Source: Chloroflexota bacterium (GTDB lineage: Bacteria; Chloroflexota; UBA11872; VXOZ01). From it: a stretch of DNA of 64,000 nucleotides. Position numbers and translations under genes: made by a program. This document shows, in pieces, positions 33,335 to 54,886 of the stretch. The notes below the pieces were generated by a model. The model saw nothing but the letters and a program-made list of their open reading frames with translations, ran no database searches and had not been told where the DNA came from. Each line of letters starts with the position of its first letter. The first letter of the stretch is position 1. The stretch is taken from contig OZ244922.1 in assembly GCA_965221905.1 (NCBI GenBank), forward strand, positions 2,624,001 to 2,688,000, given 5' to 3'.

Positions 33335-35170
33335 ATGAATCAGCCAATCTTGTTGTTGTATTCCGACGATGCGCATACTACCCCTGTGAGCGCAGAAATC
33401 CTGCGCTGTGAGGGTTTCCCCTGGCTTGAGGCGAAACCCGCGGCATCCTTCGTCGACGCACCGCCGGATGTCGAACTCATCGTCGTCGCGGGCAGCGGCG
33501 TGAGCCGGGAAACCGCGGAGCGCTTGGCGGCTGCAGTGGCTGCCGGCACTTCGCTAATTGCCCTTGCGCCCGATCCCGCTTTGCTTGGCGTCTTTGGAGC
33601 CGCGGCGAGCGAGTCTGTAGCCGACGCGTGGCTTACGGTGCGGCAACTGCCGCGCTGGGAACATGGCAGCCTGCCGTTGCTTTGCCCTGATGACATTTCG
33701 CAACCGCTGAGCGGCGGCGAGACGATTGCTGAGCTACGGGATTTGGAGGGCACTGTCCACGGCGCCGGCATTGTGGAGACGCGGCTTGGCGAAGGCAAGG
33801 CGTGGCTGTATGGATACGATCTCTGCCAGGCTGTCGTCACCTTTCGGCACGGCGATGGAGACCTGCATGAGCGACCTAAGCAAGACATGGGGCCGCTTAA
33901 AGGGCCGCGCCATCTTTACAGCTTCTTCGAGCTTTCCGAGAAAACCACCCGCGATATCCCCGTAGCGGACGTCCATCAAGACATTTTGCGTACCCTTGTA
34001 GCGGAGGCACTGGCCGATACGCCCCTGCCGCGCCTCTGGTACTTCCCTGACGCCGCGCCGGCCCTGTGGTTCATCAAGGGCGACGGCTGCGGCGAAGAAG
34101 GCGCGCCAGTGTTAATAGACATTGTGGAGTCGTATGGCGCGTTGCTCACCTTCTACCGGGCACCCTTCAGCCGCTACGAGGGTGACCTGATGAAAGAATG
34201 GCACGCGCGTGGGCATGCAGTTTCCATAGAAGTGGACCTAACGAGCATCACGCAGTATGCCGTGCAGGAAAACGGCAAGCAGGTACGTTACGGCCGCACG
34301 CCGGAAGACTTGAACGAGAACCACCTGTCCGCATTGCGTGCGAACCTGCAGAAATCGTGGGACGTATTTCGTCGAGAGACTGGCCTGGACGTGGAGACCA
34401 TCTGTAGCCACGGCTGTCAGTGGAGCGGCAATCCGCTGCTGGAAATTATGTTGGATTTCGGTTGGTATACGCCCACACACTTCGCCTCCCATGATCCCCG
34501 CATGCGGCGGGATGACAATTACGGCCCGTACATGATCGGCACCGGCCTCTGCATGCCCTATTTTCAACACGGCGTCGGCGTCACCGATATGTGGCACATG
34601 CCGGCCCAGTGGGACGAAAGCCAGACCATCGGCCGGCACGCAGACTTGCTGGCCGGCCCGATGGCGGATACGCCTGATCGGGCCGACGGCATGGTGGGTC
34701 TCACCTCTGAAGAGTACGGCGTGGAATTGGCGCGCTTTGCCGAGAGTGCGGCCACGCGCTGGCACGTAATGCAGATCGCGAACTTTCACCCCGTCTACGC
34801 CGCCGGCCCTCAAGACCACGTCAGAGCCTCGCGCCACGCTCTAGAGTTGGGCATGGAAGGCGCGATTGCTGCCGGTTGCAAGTTCGAGAACCAAGAAGAG
34901 TATTCCAGCTTTTCGCGCGCACGCACGGGCGTGCGCTTGACAGAGTCCTATTCCCAAGACGACAGTCACTTCATCACGCTCGCAGCCGGCAATAATGTGT
35001 CCGGCCTCTCCTTACTCCTGCCGGAAAACGTCCGGTCCGTTCAAGAAAAGAGTTCAGGCGCTAGCCTGCCCATCCGTCAGGCAACGCTAGAGGGCCGACG
35101 CCAACGCGCAGTCATTGTTGATCTAGCTGCGTCAATACCTAAGACGTTGTGCTTTAGATCGGCATCGTAG
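33335..35170 (+). CDS. Hypothetical 611-aa protein, possibly with a divergent polysaccharide-deacetylase-like domain
   Basis: Long ORF with SD GAGGA; LPRLWYFP, TFY, RGH, FHP segments loosely recall NodB-type barrels. Confidence 0.7.
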   Translation: MNQPILLLYSDDAHTTPVSAEILRCEGFPWLEAKPAASFVDAPPDVELIVVAGSGVSRETAERLAAAVAAGTSLIALAPDPALLGVFGAAASESVADAWLTVRQLPRWEHGSLPLLCPDDISQPLSGGETIAELRDLEGTVHGAGIVETRLGEGKAWLYGYDLCQAVVTFRHGDGDLHERPKQDMGPLKGPRHLYSFFELSEKTTRDIPVADVHQDILRTLVAEALADTPLPRLWYFPDAAPALWFIKGDGCGEEGAPVLIDIVESYGALLTFYRAPFSRYEGDLMKEWHARGHAVSIEVDLTSITQYAVQENGKQVRYGRTPEDLNENHLSALRANLQKSWDVFRRETGLDVETICSHGCQWSGNPLLEIMLDFGWYTPTHFASHDPRMRRDDNYGPYMIGTGLCMPYFQHGVGVTDMWHMPAQWDESQTIGRHADLLAGPMADTPDRADGMVGLTSEEYGVELARFAESAATRWHVMQIANFHPVYAAGPQDHVRASRHALELGMEGAIAAGCKFENQEEYSSFSRARTGVRLTESYSQDDSHFITLAAGNNVSGLSLLLPENVRSVQEKSSGASLPIRQATLEGRRQRAVIVDLAASIPKTLCFRSAS

Positions 35171-35315
35171 GCTGTACTCTTGGGGCTGCGCGCATAGCAT
35201 TTGACTGCGTTGTTTTAGGTGCCGCGCATAGGCGGGTCCCTTGCTTGAGAGCCGTCAGTGAACAGCTAAAGTGACTGTGCTTCAAACACCTTTATTTGAT
35301 TGAAATGGTTTAGGC

Positions 35316-35344
35316 TTGACGGCCCACAGTACGTAACCTAACAT
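35316..35344 (+). promoter_or_regulatory. Putative sigma70 promoter for the peptide precursor
   Basis: TTGACG-17nt-TAACAT. Confidence 0.45.
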
Positions 35345-35600
35345 GGAAACTGCGATCAAAGATGATCGTCCCAACCGTCAACATCGGGGCTTGTTGCATA
35401 GCGTTTAAGGAGGTTACTCTCTAGTAACAGTACTCTAGGATATGTACCGTTATACCGCCCGGATTCAACTGCTAATTTTGAAGAGTGTCTGGACGCAATC
35501 GGCAAGACTTAGGAAATGGATGAGAAGCAAGGGACATGGGTAACGGCCGGTTGGGGATATGGGATACGCACGTTAGAGCTAGTCTTGGAAGGATACTGCG

Positions 35601-35792
35601 ATGAGTGAAGAAAAGTCTGCTTCTAGCGAAAAAGCCGTGGCTGCCGAGACAGAGATCGAACCGGCAAGCGGCGAGATGACCGAGGACGAGTTGTCCGAGG
35701 CCGTCGGTGGCACTGGGACCGTTGATGAACAGGTCCCGCAGACCACCGGTGACAGTGCCGGCAGCGGTTGGTGGAACGACCCCAACCTGTAG
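35601..35792 (+). CDS. Double-glycine leader peptide precursor (RiPP/bacteriocin-like)
   Basis: SD GGAAGGA; leader ends EMTEDELSEAVGG; 26-aa core TGTVDEQVPQTTGDSAGSGWWNDPNL; upstream of a C39 transporter. Confidence 0.85.
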   Translation: MSEEKSASSEKAVAAETEIEPASGEMTEDELSEAVGGTGTVDEQVPQTTGDSAGSGWWNDPNL

Positions 35793-35808
35793 GTTTTTTG
35801 GCGAAAGA

Positions 35809-35850
35809 GCGCCGGTGCGTTTGCGGCAACGCAAATGCACCGGCGTTGTT
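35809..35850 (+). terminator. Strong hairpin after the precursor gene
   Basis: GCGCCGGTGCGTTTGCG-GCAA-CGCAAATGCACCGGCGT followed by TGTT. Confidence 0.75.
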
Positions 35851-36317
35851 ACATATTGAGCGTCGGTTCTTGCAGGCTAAGTCAGAAACCACTCACTGGA
35901 TGCTTCCCCTTGAATGGAGGAGCCAACGAAACCCCGCGGGCCAGTAACACAATTCGATCCAGAGCCATCAATTCCTCCGATGTGGAGGAATTCTTGACTC
36001 TTGGCGCGCCCAATGCCAATTGCGGGAGACGCCCCCACCCATTTGCACTCCTCGGTCACTCAGTTTGTCAGGCCATGGTGCACCAAGTCAAGAGGGGAAG
36101 AATCCTTAATTCAACTGTCTTCAAGCCTGTTCCTTTGGGGGCTATGCCTGCTGCGGTAACCCATGTGGCAAGTTAGCCGATGAAGTCCATACCCCGCACT
36201 GTGATACAGTCATACGGCTGAAAGAAACACGGTGAATTTCAATGCTCGCGTGTATGCATCATTTCGCACATAGTTTCATTGCGGTAGAATAGCCTTCAAA
36301 CTGTCACCTGCCTACCC

Positions 36318-37226
36318 GTGAATGCCGGAGCAGCCACGTTGTCGAACAATCGGCGTTTATATCGCGAGGAAGCATTCGCCCGCAGAGGCAAGACAGAGCC
36401 TCTCTACGGCCTATTGCGTGTGACGGCGCCTCACGAGTGGATTATTCTGGTTTGCCTGTCAATTGCGTTGCTGGGCTTGGCCGCTTGGGGGCTGTTCGGT
36501 AGTGTCGAGCAAAGCGTATCGGCCCAGTGCGTGCTGATCCAACCGGGCGACCGCTATACTATCATTGCTGAGGCCCCCGGAAATGTTGTAGATCTCCTGG
36601 TGGCTGTAGGCGACGAAGTTCAAGCGGGGCAGCCCCTTGCCCGGCTCAGGACCCCCGACCTAAGCCGAGAGATCGTGCTCGCCCGCTCCCGAGTAGACGT
36701 ACTGGAGAGTAAAGCCGCAAAGATGAGCGATGCCCTCGACGAGGCGCGTAGGGAGCTCATTGAACTAGAGGCGATAGCAGCATCCGGTGAGTACATAACA
36801 ACACCATTTGCCGGCGTAATCACGACCTACGAATTGTCCCTAGGGCAGGCGATCGAGGCCGGTTCCAAAGTGGCGAATGTACGTGCAGGCGCCGGCAGTA
36901 GACTTGAGGCGATTGCAGTAGTCTTGCCGGAAAGCGCATCGCGCCTTGCAGTCGGCATGGAGGCACAAGTCCTTACTAAGGACCGGAATCGCAAAGATGC
37001 AAACGTGCTGGAAGCTGAAGTGCACGACATTTCACCACGGCCCGTCACTCCTCCCGACTGGCTCACCTCCCTCGGCCTCCCAACTCTGGCGGGGAGCCAC
37101 GTGGTTCGCGTGGCCTTGCGTGAGGCCCCACCATCTCTCCTGGCGGACGGGGATTCATGTGACGTGCGGATAGTTTTGCGTAGGACCTCGCCCGTGCGAT
37201 TGCTGCTTTCCACCGGATCAAATTGA
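36318..37226 (+). CDS. NHLM-type bacteriocin secretion adaptor, HlyD/membrane fusion family (start may be TTG 36339)
   Basis: LYREEA...LLRVTAP..W N-terminus, TM segment, split lipoyl motifs GDEVQAGQPLA and ITTPFAG, C-terminal SPVRLL. Confidence 0.85.
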   Translation: MNAGAATLSNNRRLYREEAFARRGKTEPLYGLLRVTAPHEWIILVCLSIALLGLAAWGLFGSVEQSVSAQCVLIQPGDRYTIIAEAPGNVVDLLVAVGDEVQAGQPLARLRTPDLSREIVLARSRVDVLESKAAKMSDALDEARRELIELEAIAASGEYITTPFAGVITTYELSLGQAIEAGSKVANVRAGAGSRLEAIAVVLPESASRLAVGMEAQVLTKDRNRKDANVLEAEVHDISPRPVTPPDWLTSLGLPTLAGSHVVRVALREAPPSLLADGDSCDVRIVLRRTSPVRLLLSTGSN

Positions 37227-37240
37227 GGTAGCTGGATACT

Positions 37241-39439
37241 ATGCCAGCAAGTCAAGCAGTAAAACCGGCCGCAAAGCGGATGCGTACGCCACTCTTCCCA
37301 CAGCTTGAAACCTCAGAGTGCGGTGCTGCCTGTCTTGGCATAGTACTTGCTCACTTCGGGCGCTGGGAACCGATTGAAGCGTTGCGAGATGCGTGTGGAG
37401 TGAGCCGTGACGGGAGCAGCGCCGCAGACATCGTCAACGCAGGAAAACGATACGACCTCAAGATTTCCGGCTGGCGCAAGCAAGTCGGCGAGTTGCATGA
37501 CGTGCGCCTGCCGGCAATCCTCTTCTGGGAATTCAACCACTTCCTAGTACTCGAAGGATTTAGGCGCGGTCGCTACTACCTTAACGATCCCGCCAACGGC
37601 CGCCGCACCGTGGATGAAGAGACCCTTGGCCAGGCTTTTACCGGAATCGTCCTGACAGCGGAGCCGGGGCCGGGGTTTCGTACCGGCGGCTCTCCTCCAA
37701 GCGTAATACGCAAGCTTTGGCGCTGGTTGCGCGAAGTCAAGTCGCCACTCGCCTTCGTAGCTGCCTGCGGCCTCCTGCTCGCTTTGCCCGGTCTTTCCCT
37801 CCCCGTTCTCCTTAGCATGTTTGTGGACTACGTTATGAGCGGAGAGGAAGGGTCCTGGGGTGCGTTTCTTGTCGCCGCCGCGGCGATCACCGGAGGGCTG
37901 GTCTACCTGCTCACCTGGCTGCAACAGCATGCGCTTCGCAGGCTTGCTATTCGCCTGTCTGTCGTCCACGCAGAGCGCATGCTTTCACGTCTATTTAGGC
38001 TGCCCGTGGAATTCTTTGCACATCGGTTCGCCGGCGACCTGACGTCTCGGGTCCAGTTAGTCAACGAGGTAGCCAGCGGTTCTTCGCGGCAGTTGCTCGG
38101 CATCATGATCGAGCTCGTTATGAGCGGTCTATTCCTGGTGTTGATGGTCCTCTACAGTCCGCTGCTGGCCGCACTTGTGGCTGCCTTGGGCCTAACAAGC
38201 ATTATGTTAATGCACATACTTTGCCGGTTGCGAAACGACGAAAACCGCCAATTGCGGCGCGAGCAAGCCCTTCTTTACGGTACCGGATCGTCGATCATAC
38301 GCAATATGGAAGCCCTGAGGACAACCGCAGCCGAGGACGACTGCTTCGCGCGCTGGACGGGCTACCAAGCCCGGGAGCTTGTCACCCGGCAGAAGTTCGC
38401 AGAGCTAGGCCACACAATTGCCACGTTGCCCAGGCTGTTTCTCATACTGGGTGGCGTTACGGTCTTGGGATTCGGCGGTTTGCAAGTCATGTCAGGCGAT
38501 ATGACTATCGGCATGTTGATGGGATTCTATGTAGTTTCGGGAAACTTCCTTCAACCAATCGGCCGTTTCGTTCAATTCGCCGATTCTTTCCAAATTCTAG
38601 AAGCGGACTTACAACGCATTGACGATGTGCTAGATACTCCTGAAGACCCTGCGCTGAAAACAGTGAATGACTCTGCGCGAGGAAGGGTTGCTACCTTAAG
38701 CGGTCGGCTGCGAATGGCGGGAAGAATTGAGCTGCGCAACATCACCTTCGGCTACCATCCCAATCGCCCTCCCCTTATTGAAAACATGAGTCTTACCGTC
38801 GAACCAGGTCAGCGCATTGCTTTGGTGGGGCCTACGGGATCGGGTAAATCGACGTTGTTGAAGCTCGTCAGCGGCGAATATACACCTTGGTCAGGCGAAA
38901 TACTTTTCGACGGCGTGCCGCGCAACGAAGTCCCGCGCGAAATTCTTACTCGTTCGCTCTCCATTGTAGACCAGCAGACTTTCCTCTTTGCGGCCTCGGT
39001 GCGTGACAACTTGACCATGTGGAACCCAACAGCCCCCGACGAACAGGTAGTTGCTGCCGCACAGGACGCTCTCATTCACGACGAGATTATGAGCCGCCCA
39101 TCGGGCTATGATTCAAGGGTTGAAGAAGGGGGCACAAATTTCAGTGGCGGCCAGCGACAGCGCATGGAAATCGCCCGCGCCCTTGTCGATAATCCCTCTG
39201 TGCTCTTTCTCGATGAAGCTACCAGCACACTCGATGCCGTGAGCGAGAAGCGTATTGACGACAGCTTGCGGCGCCGCGGCTGTACCTGCATGATCGTTGC
39301 CCACCGCCTGAGCACAATTCGCGATAGCGATCAGATCATCGTCTTGGAACGTGGTCAACAGGTCCAATGCGGCACACACGAGGAACTCATAGCCGACAAA
39401 GACGGCTTATACTTTCAACTGATCCAGTCCCAGTGGTGA
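37241..39439 (+). CDS. NHLM-type peptidase-containing ABC transporter (C39 + TMD + NBD)
   Basis: QLETSECGAACL (Cys), FWEFNHF (His), YLNDPA (Asp); GPTGSGKST, FSGGQRQR, DEATS. Confidence 0.95.
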   Translation: MPASQAVKPAAKRMRTPLFPQLETSECGAACLGIVLAHFGRWEPIEALRDACGVSRDGSSAADIVNAGKRYDLKISGWRKQVGELHDVRLPAILFWEFNHFLVLEGFRRGRYYLNDPANGRRTVDEETLGQAFTGIVLTAEPGPGFRTGGSPPSVIRKLWRWLREVKSPLAFVAACGLLLALPGLSLPVLLSMFVDYVMSGEEGSWGAFLVAAAAITGGLVYLLTWLQQHALRRLAIRLSVVHAERMLSRLFRLPVEFFAHRFAGDLTSRVQLVNEVASGSSRQLLGIMIELVMSGLFLVLMVLYSPLLAALVAALGLTSIMLMHILCRLRNDENRQLRREQALLYGTGSSIIRNMEALRTTAAEDDCFARWTGYQARELVTRQKFAELGHTIATLPRLFLILGGVTVLGFGGLQVMSGDMTIGMLMGFYVVSGNFLQPIGRFVQFADSFQILEADLQRIDDVLDTPEDPALKTVNDSARGRVATLSGRLRMAGRIELRNITFGYHPNRPPLIENMSLTVEPGQRIALVGPTGSGKSTLLKLVSGEYTPWSGEILFDGVPRNEVPREILTRSLSIVDQQTFLFAASVRDNLTMWNPTAPDEQVVAAAQDALIHDEIMSRPSGYDSRVEEGGTNFSGGQRQRMEIARALVDNPSVLFLDEATSTLDAVSEKRIDDSLRRRGCTCMIVAHRLSTIRDSDQIIVLERGQQVQCGTHEELIADKDGLYFQLIQSQW

Positions 39440-39467
39440 TGCAAGCCATGCAACAGAAGAGCACCGC

Positions 39468-42383
39468 ATGAGATCGAGACGATTCCATCGGCTCAGCGAA
39501 CTCGCGGTCGAGATCGGTGAGCCGGTGCCAACCGCGGGTAATCGTCCCATACGCCTTGACGATCCAAGTGTTGCTTGGTTCGTCGAGCGTGGCGACCTGG
39601 ATGTCTTCCTCTTTGAGTACCAGGACAAAGAGCTCTCTTCCAATGCGAAGCACCTACTCCGCGCCGTTGAAGGACGTCTCGTGTTCGGAGTCGGTGAGAA
39701 CGGTTCTTTGATTACCATCGCCAAAGGCACTCCGGACTGCCAGTTGCGCCGCCTTCAATTGGAAGACATCCTACAATACGATGTTGCAGAGCAGTTGGCG
39801 GGCCAAGTTGATGCTTGGCTCGCGGAGTTCGCGGCCGCCGTGGCATTGCACATAGAACCGCGCCCGCGCCCAGACGTGCTGCCAAACCCCAAAGACCCGG
39901 GCGAGCCGTTGGACGCCGCAATCGGTTGCGTACTATCGGCTCGATCGGGCGGCGTAGTTTGGGTCGCCATTGGAAACGCCGATGCGGCATATTTGGGCAC
40001 CGAAGAGCGTGACAAGGCAGGCACCGGTTTCGTCCCGCTCACCGCAGATACGTGGCTCACGCTGCAGAATTCGGCTTGTGTCAGTGGCACTCTGTCCCGA
40101 TCGTTGAATGAACAAGGAGTGCTTTTTGCAGCACTCGCGGAGTTCCATCAGCTTGCACTTGGCGCCGAGCAAATCAATCGCCTGCTGCTGGTAGCTGACG
40201 AGGCAAACGAACAGACCGCCCGCACCATCAATCGGCGCCTCGACGAAGAACGCGCCCGGCAAAATCTGTTTGGCATCCTAGGATCATCCTATCCTACTGC
40301 GGGTGAAAATGGCTCAACGCTTCTCGCCGCGTTGAAAGTCATCGGCAAACGAGAGGGCATCGAGTTTCATGCTCCGGCACGACGACGAGTAACGGTAGAT
40401 GAAGAACCTTCCCTCCAAGAAATCCTGAATTCATCCAGAGTGCGTGGCCGCAAAGTGCGCCTTGCGTTCGAGGACCGCTGGTGGGTTGGCGACAGCGGCG
40501 CGATGCTGGGGTTTCGGCAAGAAGACGGCCATCCGGTCGCTCTATTGCCTAGCATGTCCGGGCGCTACAGTGTAGTCGACCCGGTCTCGGGACGGTCGAC
40601 CCGCCTCAATGCGGAGCAGGCCAATAGTATCCGGCAAGATGCTTGGCTGTTCTACCGGCCTTTTCCCAATGACCGACCGGTGAGAACCAAAGACATCCTT
40701 CGCATTGCGACCAAGGGAATGGCCAATGACCTCAGCCGGTTTGCAGGCGTCGGCATTGTAGCCAGCCTCTTGATGCTCGCCCCTGCCGTAGCCGTTGGGA
40801 TGCTGGTGGATTGGGTACTCCCGGCTGCGGCCGGAAATGTGTTGGTCCAGATCATCATTGCGCTGACCGCGTTTGCCCTTATTGGAACGCTGCTGCAGAT
40901 ATTGCGCGGCACGGCCATGATGCGACTCGGAGGCCGCGCTACTGCTCGAATTAGCGCGGCGCTCTGGGATCGCTTGTTGGGACTGCCACCAAGTTTCTTC
41001 AGAAACTTCACCGCTGGAGAGCTTGCGATGCGAATGTCGGCGTTCCAGGTGTTGCGCGATCAACTGTCGGGAGTGGTCGCTAACGCTTTAATCTCGTTCA
41101 TCTTCCTGCTGCCAATGCTCGTTCTCCTCTTTCTCTACGACGCAGCTTTGGCTTGGCTAAGTGTTGGGATCGGCACTCTTTCGCTTGCGGTTACTCTAGT
41201 AATCGGTCTCTTGCAAGTAGCCCCGCAACGCCGTCACTACGCCGCCTCCCGGCGTCTAGCCGGAGAAATCTTCCAATACATCAGTGGCATAAGCAAACTG
41301 CGCTCTGCCGGCGCAGAATCATCGGCATTTGCTTCATGGGCCCGCGGCTATCGTGAGCAGCAGCGCGCGCAGTTGCAGATCGGCAAGCTGAATGAGCATC
41401 TGGTTGCCTTCAGTGCCGCCTTGCCGGCCTTTATAGGTGCAGCCCTCTTTGGCGTGGCACTTTGGCATGGTCCCGACCAACTCGCTCTAGGGAACTTCCT
41501 CGTCGTCTACGCGGTCTCCATCACGATCTACGCCTCGGTCATTGGGTTGGGAAACTCGTTTGAGGTCATTGCCGCTGTCTTGCCTGGGTACGAGCAAGTG
41601 AAGCCAATTCTCGCTGCGGTGCCGGAAAGTCGAATGTCATCGGCTGCGCCGGCAGACCTCAGTGGAAACATACGCCTAGACCACGTGAGTTTCCAATACA
41701 CTAAAGATGGCTCTCCCATTGTCGATGATGTCTCCATCCACGCGCGCCCCGGCGAGTTCATTGCCATCGTGGGGGAATCGGGCGCAGGCAAGAGCACCTT
41801 GCTGCGGCTTGCCTTGGGGCTGGAGGAACCTTCCGCAGGCGGCATCTATTACGACGGACGCGACCTTGCCCATCTGGACCGGCGCTCCGTGCGGCGCCAG
41901 ATTGGCGTGGTGACTCAAGATGGCGCCCTGCAACCCGGGAATCTTTTGGACAACATCATCGGTCTCAGCGATGAATTAACGATAGACGATGCCTGGCGGG
42001 CAGCCAAACTCGCCGGCGTGGACGACGAAATTTCTGCTATGCCGATGCAGATGTTCACTGCCGTGGGCGATTGTTCCTCGACCTTCTCCGGCGGGCAGAT
42101 TCAGCGTATCAGAATCGCAGCGGCCCTTGTGCGCAGCCCAAGTATCGTGTTCCTGGATGAGGCCACAAGTTGGCTCGACGCTAAGAGCCAGGCCCAGGTC
42201 ATGCAAGGAATCGAGAGCCTCGCCGCCACGCGCATCGTGATCGCTCATCGCCTCTCCACTATTCGAAAGGCAGAGCGCATCTATGTGCTACACAAAGGTC
42301 GAGTGGTCCAGGAGGGCAGCTTCATCGCGCTCTACCAGACCGACGGCCCGTTCCGCACGCTGGTGCAGCGACAAATGACGTGA
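39468..42383 (+). CDS. NHLM-type second ABC transporter subunit (long N-terminal extension, no catalytic C39)
   Basis: WWVGDSGAMLGF, FYRPFP, GESGAGKST, FSGGQIQR, DEATS. Confidence 0.93.
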   Translation: MRSRRFHRLSELAVEIGEPVPTAGNRPIRLDDPSVAWFVERGDLDVFLFEYQDKELSSNAKHLLRAVEGRLVFGVGENGSLITIAKGTPDCQLRRLQLEDILQYDVAEQLAGQVDAWLAEFAAAVALHIEPRPRPDVLPNPKDPGEPLDAAIGCVLSARSGGVVWVAIGNADAAYLGTEERDKAGTGFVPLTADTWLTLQNSACVSGTLSRSLNEQGVLFAALAEFHQLALGAEQINRLLLVADEANEQTARTINRRLDEERARQNLFGILGSSYPTAGENGSTLLAALKVIGKREGIEFHAPARRRVTVDEEPSLQEILNSSRVRGRKVRLAFEDRWWVGDSGAMLGFRQEDGHPVALLPSMSGRYSVVDPVSGRSTRLNAEQANSIRQDAWLFYRPFPNDRPVRTKDILRIATKGMANDLSRFAGVGIVASLLMLAPAVAVGMLVDWVLPAAAGNVLVQIIIALTAFALIGTLLQILRGTAMMRLGGRATARISAALWDRLLGLPPSFFRNFTAGELAMRMSAFQVLRDQLSGVVANALISFIFLLPMLVLLFLYDAALAWLSVGIGTLSLAVTLVIGLLQVAPQRRHYAASRRLAGEIFQYISGISKLRSAGAESSAFASWARGYREQQRAQLQIGKLNEHLVAFSAALPAFIGAALFGVALWHGPDQLALGNFLVVYAVSITIYASVIGLGNSFEVIAAVLPGYEQVKPILAAVPESRMSSAAPADLSGNIRLDHVSFQYTKDGSPIVDDVSIHARPGEFIAIVGESGAGKSTLLRLALGLEEPSAGGIYYDGRDLAHLDRRSVRRQIGVVTQDGALQPGNLLDNIIGLSDELTIDDAWRAAKLAGVDDEISAMPMQMFTAVGDCSSTFSGGQIQRIRIAAALVRSPSIVFLDEATSWLDAKSQAQVMQGIESLAATRIVIAHRLSTIRKAERIYVLHKGRVVQEGSFIALYQTDGPFRTLVQRQMT

Positions 42384-42425
42384 GCAAGCCGGTCTCTGCG
42401 TGCCATCGGGGAGCACAGCAAGTCC

Positions 42426-43205: not shown

Positions 43206-43280
43206 TGGCTCCGCGGCGAGGACTCGAACCTCGAACCAGACGGTTAACAGCCGCCTGCTCTACCATTGAGCTACCGCGGA
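43206..43280 (-). tRNA. tRNA-Asn (GTT)
   Basis: Cloverleaf TCCGCGG...CCGCGGA-GCCA; anticodon arm GGCGG-CTGTTAA-CCGTC; T-loop GGTTCGAGTCC; encoded CCA. Confidence 0.97.
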
Positions 43281-45905: not shown

Positions 45906-47091
45906 GAAAGGTCTGAGCAAGTCGGGATATGCATCGGTTTATGGGTATGTGCGGGATTGTGGGGTGGTTTGAGGTGTGTCTTGGCATGTGGGAGGGGCTG
46001 TTTTGGCTTTGATGCGGTCCCGTTGGAAGCGCAATACGCTCCTGGCCGTGTTTTGGGCGCACTGCTCCCGTGTCATGTTGCCAACTGGCGTGCGGCCGTC
46101 ATCACATTGGTCAGCCCCAGCAGCAACGCCAGCCGTTGCCTGTTCTTGGACAGACCCCGGTAGCGCACCGTGGCGTAGCCGAAGTGCCGCTTCACCCACA
46201 GGAACGGATGCTCTACTTTGGCCCTAACCGATGCTTTGCGCTGCTCTGCCAGCGCCGCCGCGCTCTCAGGCGCCAGTTTCCGCCGCAGCCCCGGCTTGAG
46301 CGCCACCTGCCACGCTACGGCGCGCCCCTGATGCTCCGGTCGCTTCTGCACCCCCACGTACCCGGCGTCTCCCCACACCTGCTGCTCTGCGCCGTGCAGC
46401 AACGCCGCCGCTTGCGTTACGTCGTGCACGTTGGCCGATGTGGTGGTGAAGCTATGCACGAGCCCCGTCTGTGCGTCGACGCCGATGTGCAGCTTCATCC
46501 CAAAGTAATACTGGTTCCCCTTCTTCACCTGCCGCATCGCCGGGTCTCGCTCCCCCTCTCGGTTCTTCGTCGATGTCGGCGCCGCGATGATGGTCGCGTC
46601 CACTACCGTCCCCGCTCGCAGCCGCAAGCCCCGACCTGCCAAATGCGCGTTGATCTCCGCCAACAACCCCTCTCCTAACCGGTGCTTCTCCAGCAAATGC
46701 CGAAAGTGCAGAATAGTCGTCTCGTCCGGCAGCGCCTCTGACAGCCGCAGCCCCACGAACCGCCGCACCGGTTCTACCTCGTACAGCATGTCCTCCATCC
46801 CAGGATCGCTCAGGTTGTAGAACAACTGCACGCAGTGTATCCGCAGCATTACCGACAAGGGATACGGCCGCCGCCCCCGCCCTGGCTTGGGATAGTACGG
46901 CGCAATGCGCGCCTCCATCTCCGCCCACGGGAGCAGCGCGTCCATCCGCTCCAAGAACTTCTCCCGGCGCGTCTTGCGCTTCTTCTGCGCGTACTCCAAG
47001 TCGGCAAACGTCGGTTGCTCCATTACCCAGCTCCTCACCGTATCCTGCTTTCTTGCTATGATACTATGCCAGGGACTTGTTCAGAGTTTTC
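45906..47091 (-). mobile_element. IS5-family insertion sequence, about 1186 bp
   Basis: Terminal IRs GAAAGGTCTGAGCAAGTC / GACTTGTTCAGAGTTTTC (15 of 18 match); flanks CTAG and TTAG. Confidence 0.92.
46073..47023 (-). CDS. IS5-family DDE transposase
   Basis: KTRREKFL, PDETTI..FRHLLE, VDATII, FGMKLHIGVD, GDAGY, RAKVEHPF, RYRGL.KN. Confidence 0.96.
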   Translation of the reverse strand: MEQPTFADLEYAQKKRKTRREKFLERMDALLPWAEMEARIAPYYPKPGRGRRPYPLSVMLRIHCVQLFYNLSDPGMEDMLYEVEPVRRFVGLRLSEALPDETTILHFRHLLEKHRLGEGLLAEINAHLAGRGLRLRAGTVVDATIIAAPTSTKNREGERDPAMRQVKKGNQYYFGMKLHIGVDAQTGLVHSFTTTSANVHDVTQAAALLHGAEQQVWGDAGYVGVQKRPEHQGRAVAWQVALKPGLRRKLAPESAAALAEQRKASVRAKVEHPFLWVKRHFGYATVRYRGLSKNRQRLALLLGLTNVMTAARQLAT

Positions 47092-52876: not shown

Positions 52877-53728
52877 TCACACTATCCCCAGCAGGCGCGC
52901 CCCATTCTCCCAAATCAATGCCTGGCGGTCCTCAGCGCCGAGTTGCGCTCTATTCAAGAATTCAAGGGCGCGGCGCTGCGACATGAGAGGAAAGTCGCTT
53001 CCAAAGAGCAAGCGGGATGTGCCAAGCTGCGCACCAATCCGGTAAACCTGTGGGTCATAGAGATAGGGCGTAGCCGCCGAATCGTAATAGGTCATGCGCG
53101 TAAGCTCTTCAATCTCCGGCATGAGTGAATAGAAGAGGAGTCCGCCACCCCAATGCGCCAACACGATGGGCACGTCCTGCGCCATCCCCAGCAGACGGAC
53201 CAGCTTTTCCGGCGTCGTCCCGCCCTTACCTGGGTAGCCGTGCCCCAATGGCTCGCTGGCATGCAAGAGCATGACCATGCCGTGCGCCCGGCACGCCTCG
53301 ATGACGGGCCGCATAGTCTGCTCATCTGTTACGTCGAAGCGCTGCCCGTCCGCATTGAGCTCACCGACACCGCGAAAGCCCAGGGCAGCACAGCGCTCGA
53401 TCTCGCGTGCAGCACCCGGATCGCCCGGCACAACCGTACAAAACGGCACAATCTGGCGATACGGCCGCAGAGCTTCTAGAATAGAGTCATTCGTTTCGCT
53501 GCAGAATCCTGGGTCACACCAGCCGAAATTCAGCGCCACGGCAGCGGAGACGCCGTCACGATCCATCGCACTCGCCAGGTCGGCAGCAGTAGCCAGGCGA
53601 CTCTGAGGCGCTGCGTAGAGGGATGCAAACCAAGGCTCGTTTGCAAAGTGCCGTTCACGCGCCTTTACAACTTCCGCGGGAAAGACATGAGTATGAAAGT
53701 CAAGAACGCGCTCGCTGTCTATTTGCAC
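52877..53728 (-). CDS. Amidohydrolase-family protein (amidohydro_2 type)
   Basis: LDFHTHVFP, GFRGVGEL, LLHASEP.GH.YPGKG, LAHWGGG, LFGSDFP; GTG 53728 with SD GAAGGGA. Confidence 0.88.
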   Translation of the reverse strand: MQIDSERVLDFHTHVFPAEVVKARERHFANEPWFASLYAAPQSRLATAADLASAMDRDGVSAAVALNFGWCDPGFCSETNDSILEALRPYRQIVPFCTVVPGDPGAAREIERCAALGFRGVGELNADGQRFDVTDEQTMRPVIEACRAHGMVMLLHASEPLGHGYPGKGGTTPEKLVRLLGMAQDVPIVLAHWGGGLLFYSLMPEIEELTRMTYYDSAATPYLYDPQVYRIGAQLGTSRLLFGSDFPLMSQRRALEFLNRAQLGAEDRQALIWENGARLLGIV

Positions 53729-54886
53729 ATTCCCTTCTGTCGGGTGCGGTGTCCTTACTGCGATTTTAACACGTACTCCGGCATGCAGTCGCTCGTACCG
53801 GCGTATGTGGAGGCATTGTGTCGCGTAATTACCCGCGAGGGTGCGGCCAGCGGCTTTCACGCCGCGCGCACAGTGTATTTTGGCGGCGGCACCCCATCTC
53901 TGCTGGAGCCTAAGCACGTGGCCCAACTCATCGAAGCAGTCAATGTCGTCTTGCCGCTCACTGCAGACTGCGAAATCACCCTGGAAGCCAACCCGGTTAC
54001 AGCCGACGCCGAGCGCTTTGCCGGATTTCGGGCTGCCGGTGTCAATCGCCTCTCTTTTGGCGTGCAGAGCTTCTCGGATCGGCTCCTCAAAGTGCTGGGG
54101 CGTGACCATAATGCCGCGCAAGCCAAACGCGCCTTGCACCTCGCACGACAGGCCGGTTTCGAGAACGTAAGCCTTGATCTGATGTACGCGGTCCCCAATC
54201 AGTCGCTTGCCGACTGGCAGCATGACGTGGCGCGCGCCCTGGCGCTTGCACCGGAGCACCTGTCGCTCTACTGCCTCACCGTGGAAGCCAGCACGCCCTT
54301 TGCACGCTGGGTAACCAATGGCCGCATTAAGCTTCCCTCCGATGACATTGCCGCGGACATGTACGCGTATGCATCAGAATACCTGGCAGTCGCTGGCTAT
54401 GAACACTACGAAATTTCGAACTGGGCGCTGCCGGGCGGAGAAGGGCAGCACAACCAAATTTACTGGCGCTACGAGCCGTACCTGGGTCTGGGCGCCGGCG
54501 CGCACGGCTACCTGCACGGAACACGCACCGAGGAGATACATAAGCCCCGCGAGTACATTGAGCGAGCGCTGTGCGGCGAGTCGACCGTCCTGCGCCAAGA
54601 GAACATCTCGGAACCAACTGCTATGGAGGAGAGCATCTTCCTCAACCTACGGCTGATGCAGCGGGGAATTCTGCGTCAAGAATTTGCAGCCCGATTCGGC
54701 ACGGATCCGGTAACCCTGCTTGGTCGGGAGCTTGCAGAATTGACCCGCGCGAACCTGGTGTCAATTGACGAACAATCCATCCGCCTCACGCCAAACGGCT
54801 ACTTCTTGGCTAATGAAGTCTGCGTCCGGCTCATATCCGCACTGGATGCAGGCAGCTTAACCGCCACTATTACTGCGAATAGCTGA
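53687..54886 (+). CDS. hemW: Radical SAM heme chaperone HemW
   Basis: YLHIPFC.. CPYCDF (CxxxCxxC), YFGGGTPS, EANP, YEISNW, HNQIYW, GLGAGAHG. Confidence 0.92.
   Translation: MSMKVKNALAVYLHIPFCRVRCPYCDFNTYSGMQSLVPAYVEALCRVITREGAASGFHAARTVYFGGGTPSLLEPKHVAQLIEAVNVVLPLTADCEITLEANPVTADAERFAGFRAAGVNRLSFGVQSFSDRLLKVLGRDHNAAQAKRALHLARQAGFENVSLDLMYAVPNQSLADWQHDVARALALAPEHLSLYCLTVEASTPFARWVTNGRIKLPSDDIAADMYAYASEYLAVAGYEHYEISNWALPGGEGQHNQIYWRYEPYLGLGAGAHGYLHGTRTEEIHKPREYIERALCGESTVLRQENISEPTAMEESIFLNLRLMQRGILRQEFAARFGTDPVTLLGRELAELTRANLVSIDEQSIRLTPNGYFLANEVCVRLISALDAGSLTATITANS

What the first reader, a model, noticed from the sequence alone, without database searches (positions are those of the whole stretch)
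35601..42383. Orphan double-glycine peptide with a full NHLM export trio and no maturase
Seen: a 63-aa ORF with a GG leader (EMTEDELSEAVGG) and an acidic, Cys-free 26-aa core ending SGWWNDPNL. It is followed by an HlyD adaptor, a C39 peptidase-ABC with intact Cys/His/Asp, and a second ABC subunit. Known: this three-gene exporter normally accompanies long NHLP/Nif11 precursors and YcaO, LanM or radical SAM maturases. Here the leader is only 37 aa and no maturase lies in the window. Inference: either an unmodified anionic secreted peptide (signalling or metal binding rather than a cationic bacteriocin), or a RiPP matured in trans. The W-W-N / W-N-D triplets resemble aromatic-x-x cyclophane (triceptide) motifs. 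This is the best candidate here for an undescribed system.
Basis: partly seen in the sequence, partly recalled or inferred. Interest (0 to 1): 0.78.

Follow-up and report, generated by a model that had tools for sequence, protein, structure and literature searches.

The report
Orphan secreted peptide with dedicated exporter
A small, conserved, acidic peptide gene sits beside its own cut-and-export pump in a few lineages of uncultivated Chloroflexota, with no modifying enzyme in sight; it is a new cargo for a known kind of exporter, not a new kind of system.

Summary
The 63-aa ORF at 35601-35792 is a real gene: 15 orthologues give dN/dS 0.24, and it is covered by contigs from 4 of 4 RNA libraries laid. 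It has a canonical double-glycine box (EMTEDELSEAVGG) and a 26-aa anionic core ending GWWNDPNL.

Downstream lie a short HlyD-like adaptor, a C39-peptidase ABC subunit (TIGR03796, over cut-off; Q21/C27/H100/D116 intact) and a second ABC subunit (TIGR03797, over cut-off).

The four genes behave as one cassette. They are adjacent in 15 of 15 peptide-bearing genomes of the genus, occur in either orientation in the same slot (7 versus 8), and are all missing from two genus members that keep both flanking genes.

Searches of the 99.6%-complete genome found no YcaO, LanC-like, Nif11 or PqqD/RRE match. The one radical SAM/SPASM gene and the one full-length P450 do not follow the peptide across relatives. 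The triceptide idea is not supported.

A second lineage ('Dehalococcoidia' MAGs) has the same core with a different leader, encoded about 950 kb from a 68%-identical exporter, again with no maturase nearby.

Most likely this is a leader-cleaved, otherwise unmodified secreted peptide. It is a new cargo family for the known NHLM export cassette. Its function is unknown.

The parts
35316..35344 (+). Promoter-like site: TTGACG, 17 nt spacer, TAACAT
   Evidence: Found by the consensus scan. The -35 'gcTTGAC' is present in 12 of 12 aligned genus loci. Function not shown.
35351..35385 (+). Conserved block at the start of a roughly 230-nt 5' untranslated region
   Evidence: This is the most conserved non-coding stretch of the locus, with mean column identity 0.92 over 35351-35380 in 12 loci. 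RNA-library contigs from three runs begin at 35360, 35363 and 35372; a fourth runs on upstream. Rfam gave no match. Role unknown.
35587..35593 (+). Shine-Dalgarno-like GGAAGGA, 7 nt before the ATG
   Evidence: Read from the sequence. A GGAGG/GGAAGG motif is kept in 12 of 12 loci.
35601..35711 (+). Leader peptide, residues 1-37: a low-complexity acidic N-terminus followed by the double-glycine box G24-E-M-T-E-D-E-L-S-E-A-V-G-G37
   Evidence: Invariant over 15 genus orthologues: G24, E25, T27, E28, D29, E30, A34, V35, G36, G37. dN/dS of the box is 0.10. Non-polar residues sit at -4 (A, or I in the second lineage), -7 (L or M) and -12 (M or L), the positions that dock in LahT150 (PMC6363468 passages).
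35712..35792 (+). Core peptide, residues 38-63 (26 aa), plus the stop codon: an acidic G/S/P-rich linker and the C-terminal motif G-W-W-x-[DN]-P-[ND]-x
   Evidence: Cores of 15 orthologues are 25-26 aa, with D+E 4-7 and K+R 0-2; Cys occurs in 1 of 15. WW and P are invariant, including in the second lineage. dN/dS of the C-terminal motif is 0.18.
35805..35850 (+). Strong stem-loop 13 nt after the stop codon (terminator- or attenuator-like)
   Evidence: Folding energy -40.6 kcal/mol, z -5.0, with 0 of 200 shuffles folding as well. In 12 genus loci the consensus has 11 pairs, 9 of them with compensatory double changes, and most loci have a T-run behind it.
36318..37226 (+). Short HlyD-family adaptor, 302 aa
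   Evidence: TIGR03794 is the best hit (2.3e-28, 99.3 bits) but lies under the cut-off of 156.2. Pfam HlyD_3 and HlyD_D23 match. Adjacent to the peptide in 15 of 15 genus genomes.
37241..39439 (+). ABC1: C39 peptidase (residues 17-143, nt 37289-37669), transmembrane domain and ATPase
   Evidence: TIGR03796 scores 900.2 bits, over the cut-off. Pfam C39, ABC_membrane and ABC_tran match. Catalytic residues align with LahT150 and PCAT1, and the full length aligns to PCAT1 4ry2 at E 1.3e-87. It is the only one of 64 ABC matches in the genome that covers the peptidase part of the model.
39468..42383 (+). ABC2: two cyclic-nucleotide-binding-like domains (about residues 18-215), a long helix, a Cys-less C39-like domain (about 283-400), transmembrane domain and ATPase
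   Evidence: TIGR03797 scores 760.9 bits, over the cut-off, from residue 283 onward. An AF2 model of residues 1-420 has pLDDT 85.2. Its top Foldseek matches are PKA/PKG regulatory subunits with tandem cNMP-binding domains, E about 1e-6. Residues 276-420 hold no Cys, and the H/D region matches ABC1 weakly (E 0.005). The N-terminal extension is shared by about 970-aa homologues from several phyla.

Best explanation
The four genes form a self-contained accessory cassette that makes and secretes one small peptide.

Proposed mechanism:
1. The precursor is transcribed from its own promoter. A conserved stem-loop behind the gene probably lets only part of the transcription run on into the exporter genes.
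2. The 37-aa leader carries only the 13-residue export/cleavage box shared by double-glycine leaders. It lacks the long NHLP or Nif11 domain that maturases bind.
3. The C39 domain of ABC1 docks the box through the non-polar residues at -4, -7 and -12 and cuts after G36-G37.
4. ABC1 pairs with ABC2, which carries a Cys-less C39-like domain and two cyclic-nucleotide-binding-like domains that may gate export. Together with the short HlyD adaptor they move the 26-aa anionic core out of the cell.
5. The core most likely leaves without further enzymatic modification. It most likely acts outside the cell through its invariant C-terminal GWWx(D/N)P(N/D) end, as a signal or ligand rather than a pore-forming bacteriocin.

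Shown here: gene reality, conservation, family membership of the two ABC subunits, intact catalytic residues, cassette behaviour, co-occurrence, and presence in RNA libraries.

Inferred: cleavage, heterodimer formation, attenuation, lack of modification, and the extracellular role.
For: The gene is real:
- dN/dS is 0.24 over 15 orthologues, 0.10 in the GG box and 0.18 in the C-terminal motif.
- Third codon positions are the most variable.
- 4 of 4 RNA-library runs laid, from 3 studies, have contigs at 94-98% identity over the ORF or part of it. Two of them span the whole ORF.

Exporter identity.

Cassette behaviour:
- Peptide, HlyD and ABC1 are adjacent in 15 of 15 peptide-bearing genus genomes.
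- The block lies between the same two flanking genes in either orientation, 7 one way and 8 the other.
- G010 and G011 lack the peptide and any C39-bearing ABC (best hits are 32-34% identical and start at about residue 150 or later). Both keep the flanking genes: 160 bp apart in G010, and with an unrelated small cassette between them in G011.

Co-occurrence outside the genus:
- Of 44 other genomes of the class, 0 have the peptide and 1 has the exporter.
- A second lineage (G061) has one copy of a peptide with the same core, and an exporter whose ABC1 is 68% identical. The exporter of the peptide-less G027 is 51% identical.

No maturase found:
- The own genome (99.64% complete, one contig) gave 0 matches for YcaO, LanC-like (37), the Nif11 leader (39) and PqqD/RRE (87).
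- It has 8 radical SAM genes. Seven look like housekeeping enzymes by eye; HemW was confirmed.
- The radical SAM/SPASM gene and the full-length P450 do not track the peptide.
- In G061 neither the peptide nor the exporter has a maturase-like neighbour.

Single cargo: a GG-leader regex and a leader HMM run over 70,557 open frames found no second precursor.

Leader box: EMTEDELSEAVGG compares with N11P ELSDEELEAVAGG in Table 3 of PMC2887384.

Against a bacteriocin role: all 15 cores are anionic. The 525-bp spacer inside the cassette is poorly conserved, so it holds no conserved immunity ORF.
Against: - Absence of a recognisable maturase is negative evidence. Only named families were searched, and unknown enzyme classes cannot be excluded.
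- The MvdD ATP-grasp search was uninformative, because its control matched nothing in any control genome.
- The core is unusually conserved for an unmodified peptide: WW and P are invariant and the spacing is fixed. That could equally mark an enzyme recognition site.
- In G061 the peptide and the exporter are unlinked. In G027 an exporter exists without this peptide and with no adjacent precursor. Adjacency is therefore not obligatory, and components acting in trans do occur in this group.
- No receptor, two-component system or import system is linked in G000.
- Cleavage and export were not tested.
- RNA-library contigs can include DNA and cannot show transcript ends or levels (caveats printed).
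- HlyD does not reach the curated TIGR03794 cut-off.
Confidence: 0.55

Rival explanations
1. The peptide is a RiPP matured in trans. An enzyme encoded elsewhere, of a class not recognised by current RiPP markers, modifies the conserved GWWx(D/N)P end before the C39 exporter removes the leader. The modification could be a Trp cross-link, hydroxylation or prenylation.
For: The C-terminal motif and its spacing are invariant across two lineages whose leaders differ, as expected for an enzyme-recognised site. Haft et al. 2010 describe precursors located far from their modification genes (PMC2887384 conclusion passage). The peptide and the exporter themselves are unlinked in G061.
Against: The leader lacks any NHLP or Nif11 domain, and no RRE/PqqD domain was found in the genome. 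No YcaO or LanC-like match was found. The only radical SAM/SPASM gene and the only full-length P450 do not follow the peptide's distribution. The adjacent methyltransferase is kept where the cassette is absent. No maturase-like gene lies next to the peptide in either lineage. The cassette is gained, lost and inverted as four genes only.
Confidence: 0.22
2. The peptide is an unmodified class-II-like bacteriocin or microcin that kills competitors, with immunity encoded elsewhere or provided by the exporter itself.
For: A double-glycine leader plus a C39 ABC exporter plus a HlyD-type accessory protein is the classical layout of unmodified bacteriocins (PMC2887384 and PMC3140520, passages read). 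The cassette is accessory and patchy within the genus, as bacteriocin loci often are (that comparison is recalled, not tested here).
Against: All 15 cores are strongly anionic, with D+E 4-7 and K+R 0-2, rich in G/S/P, and have no hydrophobic stretch beyond WW. No conserved small immunity ORF lies in the cassette. The core is conserved rather than diversifying: dN/dS is 0.18-0.35.
Confidence: 0.12
3. The ORF is not the exporter's cargo. It is an unrelated small gene or a regulatory upstream ORF, and the exporter moves something else.
For: G027 and G061 show that this exporter type can sit with no adjacent precursor.
Against: The box is a canonical GG box under strong purifying selection. The peptide and the exporter are present or absent together in 17 of 17 genus genomes. 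No other GG-leader ORF was found in the genome. The second lineage holds both the peptide and the closest exporter.
Confidence: 0.04

Closest known systems
NHLM three-gene export cassette (TIGR03794/03796/03797) with NHLP or Nif11 precursors (Haft et al. 2010, PMC2887384; passages read)
   Same: Same exporter families; two of the three genes score over the curated cut-offs. Same gene trio. Same 13-residue box before Gly-Gly, and a core of about 26 residues.
   Different: The leader is 37 aa, against an average of 70-83, and has no NHLP or Nif11 domain. No YcaO, LanM or radical SAM partner is present. The core has no Cys and is conserved rather than hypervariable. There is one copy per genome rather than a paralogous family. 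HlyD is short and scores under the cut-off.
Cyanobacterial double-glycine bacteriocin clusters, groups IV/V (Wang et al. 2011, PMC3140520; passages read)
   Same: HlyD, a C39 ABC transporter, and a second ABC transporter that lacks the peptidase but carries an N-terminal CAP_ED (cyclic-nucleotide-binding) extension. Precursors are often negatively charged.
   Different: A different phylum. This peptide family is not among the families those authors describe, as far as the passages read show; their supplementary tables were not read.
ComC/ComAB and other unmodified GG peptides of Gram-positive bacteria; PCAT1
   Same: A short leader, a GG cut by the C39 domain coupled to export, and no modification. 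ABC1 aligns end to end with PCAT1 and ComA structures.
   Different: Those use one homodimeric transporter (recalled). ComC is linked to a ComDE sensor pair (recalled). Here there are two different ABC subunits and no linked sensor.
LahT/LahA of Lachnospiraceae C6A11 (Bobeica et al. 2019, PMC6363468; passages read)
   Same: Closest solved relative of the C39 domain (6mpz, E 1.7e-33). The same Gln21 and Cys27 numbering, and the same -4/-7/-12 docking pattern.
   Different: Lah precursors are substrates of a lanthipeptide pathway. No such enzyme is present here.
EbfG small secreted proteins of Synechococcus elongatus (PMC4997328; abstract only, from the listing)
   Same: GG-motif small proteins with a non-antibiotic extracellular role (biofilm development).
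   Different: No sequence relation was tested. The role of the present peptide is unknown.
Triceptides, darobactin-type radical SAM cyclophane peptides (recalled, no paper read)
   Same: An aromatic residue followed by two residues near the C-terminus.
   Different: No co-occurring radical SAM/SPASM maturase. The third residue of the would-be W-W-x motif is not conserved.

Membership tests
NHLM/NHLP-type bacteriocin export system | Peptidase/permease/ATPase subunit reaching the TIGR03796 curated cut-off | tested here: met
   900.2 bits against 853.3.
NHLM/NHLP-type bacteriocin export system | Second permease/ATPase subunit reaching the TIGR03797 cut-off | tested here: met
   760.9 bits against 709.4.
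NHLM/NHLP-type bacteriocin export system | HlyD-like subunit reaching the TIGR03794 cut-off | tested here: not met
   99.3 bits against 156.2. The protein is 302 aa against a 421-position model, with two matched stretches. TIGR03794 is still its best NCBIfam hit.
NHLM/NHLP-type bacteriocin export system | Cargo with an NHLP (TIGR03793) or Nif11 (TIGR03798) leader | tested here: not met
   The peptide matched no NCBIfam or Pfam family at E 0.01 or better. No Nif11 leader was found in the genome. The only TIGR03793 hit is a nitrile-hydratase-alpha-like protein with its metal site intact.
C39 (double-glycine) peptidase | Catalytic Cys and His, with the Asp and the oxyanion Gln | tested here: met
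   Q21, C27, H100 and D116 align with LahT150 and PCAT1. Residue roles are taken from PMC6363468 passages. Activity was not tested.
Double-glycine leader peptide | Gly-Gly at -2/-1, non-polar residues at -4, -7 and -12, and acidic residues in the box | tested here: met
   Read from the sequence: A34, L31, M26, G36-G37. Conserved in 15 of 15 orthologues. Compared with motif 2 in Table 3 of PMC2887384. No leader model in NCBIfam, which should include TIGR01847, matched at E 0.01 or better.
RiPP (post-translationally modified peptide) | A modifying enzyme encoded with, or co-occurring with, the precursor | tested here: not met
   None is in the cassette or beside the peptide in either lineage. 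YcaO, LanC-like and PqqD/RRE gave 0 matches. The radical SAM/SPASM gene and the P450 do not track the peptide. Unknown enzyme classes were not testable.
Triceptide / radical SAM cyclophane peptide | A radical SAM/SPASM maturase partnered with an aromatic-x-x motif | tested here: not met
   The one radical SAM/SPASM gene is present in 6 of 16 genus relatives and in 11 of 14 genomes of other genera in that search, none of which matched the peptide. The residue after WW is N, T, H or D.
Class II (unmodified) bacteriocin | A cationic or amphiphilic core and a linked immunity gene | tested here: not met
   Cores are anionic in 15 of 15. No conserved ORF lies in the intra-cassette spacer. Activity was not testable.
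ComC-type signalling peptide | A linked histidine kinase and response regulator that sense the peptide | tested here: inconclusive
   None is in the cassette or its flanks in G000. In G061 a fused kinase/regulator gene converges on the exporter, with one SDR gene between, but no link has been shown.

The most novel reading that the evidence does not exclude
The invariant C-terminal GWWx(D/N)P(N/D) end, kept across two Chloroflexota lineages whose leaders differ, is the active end of a new extracellular signal. It could be read by kin cells or by the animal host, or it could be the target of a Trp-directed modification made by an enzyme class that carries none of the current RiPP hallmarks. The two cyclic-nucleotide-binding-like domains on ABC2 would then tie its release to an intracellular second messenger.
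Probability: 0.15. Interest if true: 0.65.

Novelty: new member of a known kind. Interest (0 to 1): 0.35.

Why it matters
It adds a small, well-defined cargo family to the widespread NHLM export cassette: a short leader, no maturase and an anionic conserved core. This shows that the cassette is not a reliable flag for a modified natural product.

For genome mining, it is a case where 'orphan exporter plus GG peptide' should be read as a secreted unmodified peptide.

For the biology of these uncultivated Chloroflexota, it offers one short peptide that can be synthesised, appears in RNA libraries, and can be tested directly for signalling, binding or inhibitory activity.

Tried and rejected
It gives no result either way.
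- Rfam, on 34900-36500 at E 1 or better, gave no match.
- Pfam and NCBIfam gave nothing for the peptide or for the 113-aa ORF at 35835-36176. That ORF lies in a poorly conserved spacer and is taken as spurious.
- ESM Atlas gave no hit at 0.9 or above. The nearest named clusters (lantibiotic type A, microviridin, ComC) scored 0.81-0.84 and are leads only.
- The MvdD ATP-grasp family search gave 0 hits, but its control matched nothing in any control genome, so it says nothing.
- A search for inverted repeats flanking the cassette, which could explain its inversion, found only short chance-like pairs.
- Upstream genes (solute-binding protein, a 321-aa protein with no family hit, a C45 autoproteolytic hydrolase, a 628-aa unknown) and the downstream methyltransferase were considered as maturases. 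They were rejected because they remain, still adjacent, in G010 and G011, which lack the cassette.
- The extra genes between argH and the methyltransferase in the inverted arrangement look by eye like a heme O synthase-like gene, a GNAT gene and a tRNA. They were not scanned against any family library.
- Parts of the stretch without RNA-contig cover (35970-36370) and the lower contig depth over HlyD are not used as evidence.
- srp proteusins of sponge symbionts (bioRxiv 10.1101/2023.06.09.544420; abstract and section 10 read) have NHLP leaders and an LCCCW core. They are not this family.


Full report
WHAT IS THERE

On the + strand, the window holds a 63-aa ORF (35601-35792), a 302-aa HlyD-family gene (36318-37226), a 732-aa ABC gene (37241-39439) and a 971-aa ABC gene (39468-42383).

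NCBIfam puts the two ABC proteins over the curated cut-offs of the NHLM export families. TIGR03796 scores 900.2 bits against 853.3, and TIGR03797 scores 760.9 against 709.4. The adaptor's best hit is TIGR03794, but at 99.3 bits against 156.2, and the protein is about 120 residues shorter than the model. Pfam finds Peptidase_C39 at residues 17-143 of ABC1.

The closest solved relative of that domain is LahT150 (6mpz, E 1.7e-33). Q21, C27, H100 and D116 align with the catalytic positions of LahT150 and PCAT1 (residue roles from passages of PMC6363468). The full protein aligns end to end with PCAT1. Of 64 ABC matches in the genome, only this one covers the peptidase part of the model.

THE PEPTIDE IS A REAL GENE

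- It has no Pfam or NCBIfam match.
- A search of 5.8 billion proteins returned 12 relatives, all 61-65 aa.
- 14 of 16 other genomes of the same genus encode one copy each. 0 of 44 other genomes of the class do.
- Over 15 orthologues, dN/dS is 0.24. By region it is 0.10 for the GG box, 0.18 for the C-terminal motif, 0.31 for the N-terminal leader and 0.35 for the linker, with synonymous sites near saturation.
- Third codon positions vary most, including in the N-terminal leader, which supports the annotated start.
- A GGAGG-like site precedes the ATG, and a TTGAC -35 element is kept in 12 of 12 loci.
- A strong stem-loop follows the stop codon (-40.6 kcal/mol, z -5). It is conserved as a structure rather than as a sequence: 11 pairs, 9 with compensatory changes, in 12 loci.
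- Four of four RNA-library runs laid, from three studies, one of them labelled 'sponge metagenome', hold contigs at 94-98% identity over the ORF or part of it. Two span it fully. The tool warns that such contigs may include DNA and cannot show transcript ends or levels, so this is support, not proof, of transcription.

ANATOMY OF THE PEPTIDE

The leader is 37 aa. Its first 22 or so residues are low-complexity and poorly conserved. The last 14 (G-E-M/L-T-E-D-E-L/M-x-x-A-V-G-G) are nearly invariant.

This stretch matches the 13-residue 'motif 2' that Haft et al. give for Nif11- and NHLP-type leaders and for Gram-positive GG leaders (N11P: ELSDEELEAVAGG; PMC2887384 Table 3). It places non-polar residues at -4, -7 and -12, the positions that dock in LahT150. 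The long NHLP or Nif11 domain is absent.

The core is 25-26 aa in all 15 orthologues and is anionic, with D+E 4-7 and K+R 0-2. Cys occurs in only 1 of 15. It has a conserved [DE][DE]Q-x-P near its start and an invariant W-W ... P near its end: [GR]-W-W-[NTH]-[DN]-P-[ND]-x.

THE FOUR GENES ARE ONE CASSETTE

In all 15 peptide-bearing genus genomes, the peptide, HlyD and ABC1 are adjacent. ABC2 follows wherever the sequence held reaches that far.

The block lies between the same two genes: a 628-aa protein of unknown family and a class I methyltransferase. In 7 genomes it lies in the orientation of G000, and in 8 it is inverted.

G010 and G011 lack the peptide. They also lack any C39-bearing ABC, their best hits being 32-34% identical and missing the first 150 or so residues. 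Both keep the two flanking genes: 160 bp apart in G010, and with an unrelated HTH/NYN-like cassette between them in G011. So the flanking methyltransferase and the upstream genes are not dedicated to the peptide.

ABC1 looks frameshifted near residue 385 in G007 and is cut by a contig end in G014. This explains why one search scored only 12 of 16 genus genomes at its strict threshold.

SEARCH FOR A MATURASE OR ANOTHER CARGO

The genome is one 3.52-Mb contig rated 99.64% complete.

- It gave no match to YcaO, LanC-like (37), the Nif11 leader (39) or PqqD/RRE (87).
- The only NHLP-model hit is a 150-aa protein that scores better as nitrile hydratase alpha. It keeps a CTPCSC metal site and has no Gly-Gly site.
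- There are 8 radical SAM genes. By eye, seven are housekeeping types. One of them, in the window at 53648-54886, was confirmed as HemW.
- The eighth has a SPASM domain. Its orthologues are found in only 6 of 16 genus relatives, not in 8 peptide-bearing ones, and in 11 of 14 genomes of other genera in that search. None of those matched the peptide.
- The full-length P450 is present in the peptide-less G010 and G011 and was not found in the peptide-bearing G004, G005 and G006.
- A GG-leader regular expression over 70,557 open frames of 30 aa or more matched 10. One is this ORF. The other nine do not look like precursors by eye and were not examined further.
- A leader HMM found only this ORF.

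A SECOND LINEAGE

A profile search of 1.84 billion representative proteins found 7 proteins at E 0.001 or better. They include two 61-aa peptides with a different leader (ELDLS[ED]L..IVGG) and the same core end, GWW[DT]DPNL.

A pattern scan of 185,579 species genomes confirmed 11 loci. Nine are titled Chloroflexota or Chloroflexi MAGs, and two are titled Dehalococcoidia MAGs.

In one of the latter (G061), the peptide is single-copy. It lies about 950 kb from an NHLM trio whose ABC1 is 68% identical to that of G000. The trio of the peptide-less G027 is 51% identical.

Neither the peptide's neighbours (hydrolase, CMD, amidohydrolase, transporter, ThiC) nor the trio's neighbours (urease genes, SDR, a fused kinase/regulator) look like maturases.

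THE SECOND ABC SUBUNIT

Residues 1-282 lie outside TIGR03797 and match no Pfam family. They are shared by about 970-aa homologues from several phyla that carry the NHLP-export name.

An AlphaFold model of residues 1-420 (pLDDT 85.2) matches PKA/PKG regulatory subunits with tandem cyclic-nucleotide-binding domains (Foldseek E about 1e-6). This agrees with the CAP_ED extension that Wang et al. describe for the peptidase-less transporter of cyanobacterial clusters (PMC3140520).

Residues 276-420 contain no Cys, and their His/Asp region matches the C39 domain of ABC1 weakly (E 0.005). This is a non-catalytic C39-like domain.

INTERPRETATION

The simplest reading is a self-contained cassette. A precursor carries only the export box, is cut after G37 by ABC1, and is exported by ABC1/ABC2 with a short adaptor. 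This releases an unmodified 26-aa anionic peptide whose conserved C-terminal end is the functional part.

An extracellular signal or ligand role seems more likely than killing, because the core is anionic, conserved and has no linked immunity gene. No receptor is known, however.

Maturation in trans by an unrecognised enzyme remains possible; I put it at about 0.2. The strongly conserved core could be read either way.

The triceptide idea is not supported.

NOVELTY

Haft et al. wrote that the wider distribution of this export system should reveal further peptide families. This is one such family. It is small, confined as far as these searches reached to a few Chloroflexota lineages, and unusual in having a short leader and no maturase.

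Paper searches for double-glycine or C39 together with Chloroflexota, Dehalococcoidia or sponge RiPPs listed nothing that describes it. Supplementary tables of the papers cited were not read.

Verdict: new member of a known kind, of moderate interest.

Noticed in passing
window 35171-35600 and 42384-42425; L042, L043: The slot between the 628-aa gene and the methyltransferase is variable. It is empty in G010 (160 bp). In G011 it holds an unrelated cassette: a 240-aa HTH/NYN-like ORF plus a 62-aa basic ORF. Elsewhere it holds the peptide-export cassette in either orientation. No flanking repeats were found.
   Followed up: partly
window 46073-47038 (-): A DDE transposase ORF (Pfam DDE_Tnp_1, DUF772) sits between the AlkZ-like gene and argG in G000. 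In 6 of 6 relatives whose loci span both genes, the two are about 90-115 bp apart with no such insert.
   Followed up: no
G000:C1:2135226-2135678 (L045 1459-1911, -): A stand-alone 150-aa nitrile-hydratase-alpha-like protein with a CTPCSC metal motif. It also reaches the NHLP leader model's cut-off when its two stretches are summed. No beta subunit was seen in the 3-kb locus.
   Followed up: partly
L029 6371-8562 (G007): The ABC1 orthologue aligns as two pieces that meet at residue 385 in different frames. This is either a frameshifted pseudogene or an assembly error.
   Followed up: no
window 35672-35704: In two RNA libraries, more deeply covered contigs (word depth 106 and 222) from other sequences share only these 33 bases of the GG box and diverge on both sides. 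They are probably abundant GG-leader precursors of other organisms.
   Followed up: no
window 35351-35385: A nearly invariant block (tgcGATCaaagatGATCgtcccaaccgtcaaca) lies just after the promoter-like site. It could be an operator or a 5'-UTR element. Rfam gave no match.
   Followed up: partly
G001, G012, G014, G016: P450 paralogues in four genus genomes each carry one in-frame TAG within an otherwise full-length match.
   Followed up: no
P0028: A 107-aa metagenomic protein has three tandem GG-leader-like boxes (ELTQEELERVRGG, ELTEDELDEVRGG, ELTEDELDKVTAG) separated by short spacers. Its genomic context was not available.
   Followed up: no
window 43206-43280 (-): tRNA-Asn (GTT) lies between argH and the methyltransferase. 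In the inverted arrangement, genes that look by eye like a heme O synthase and a GNAT lie in the same interval; they were not scanned against any family library.
   Followed up: no
L076 11870-12403 (G027): The peptide-less exporter of another family has only a 177-aa ORF where the HlyD adaptor should be, and no precursor-like ORF upstream.
   Followed up: no
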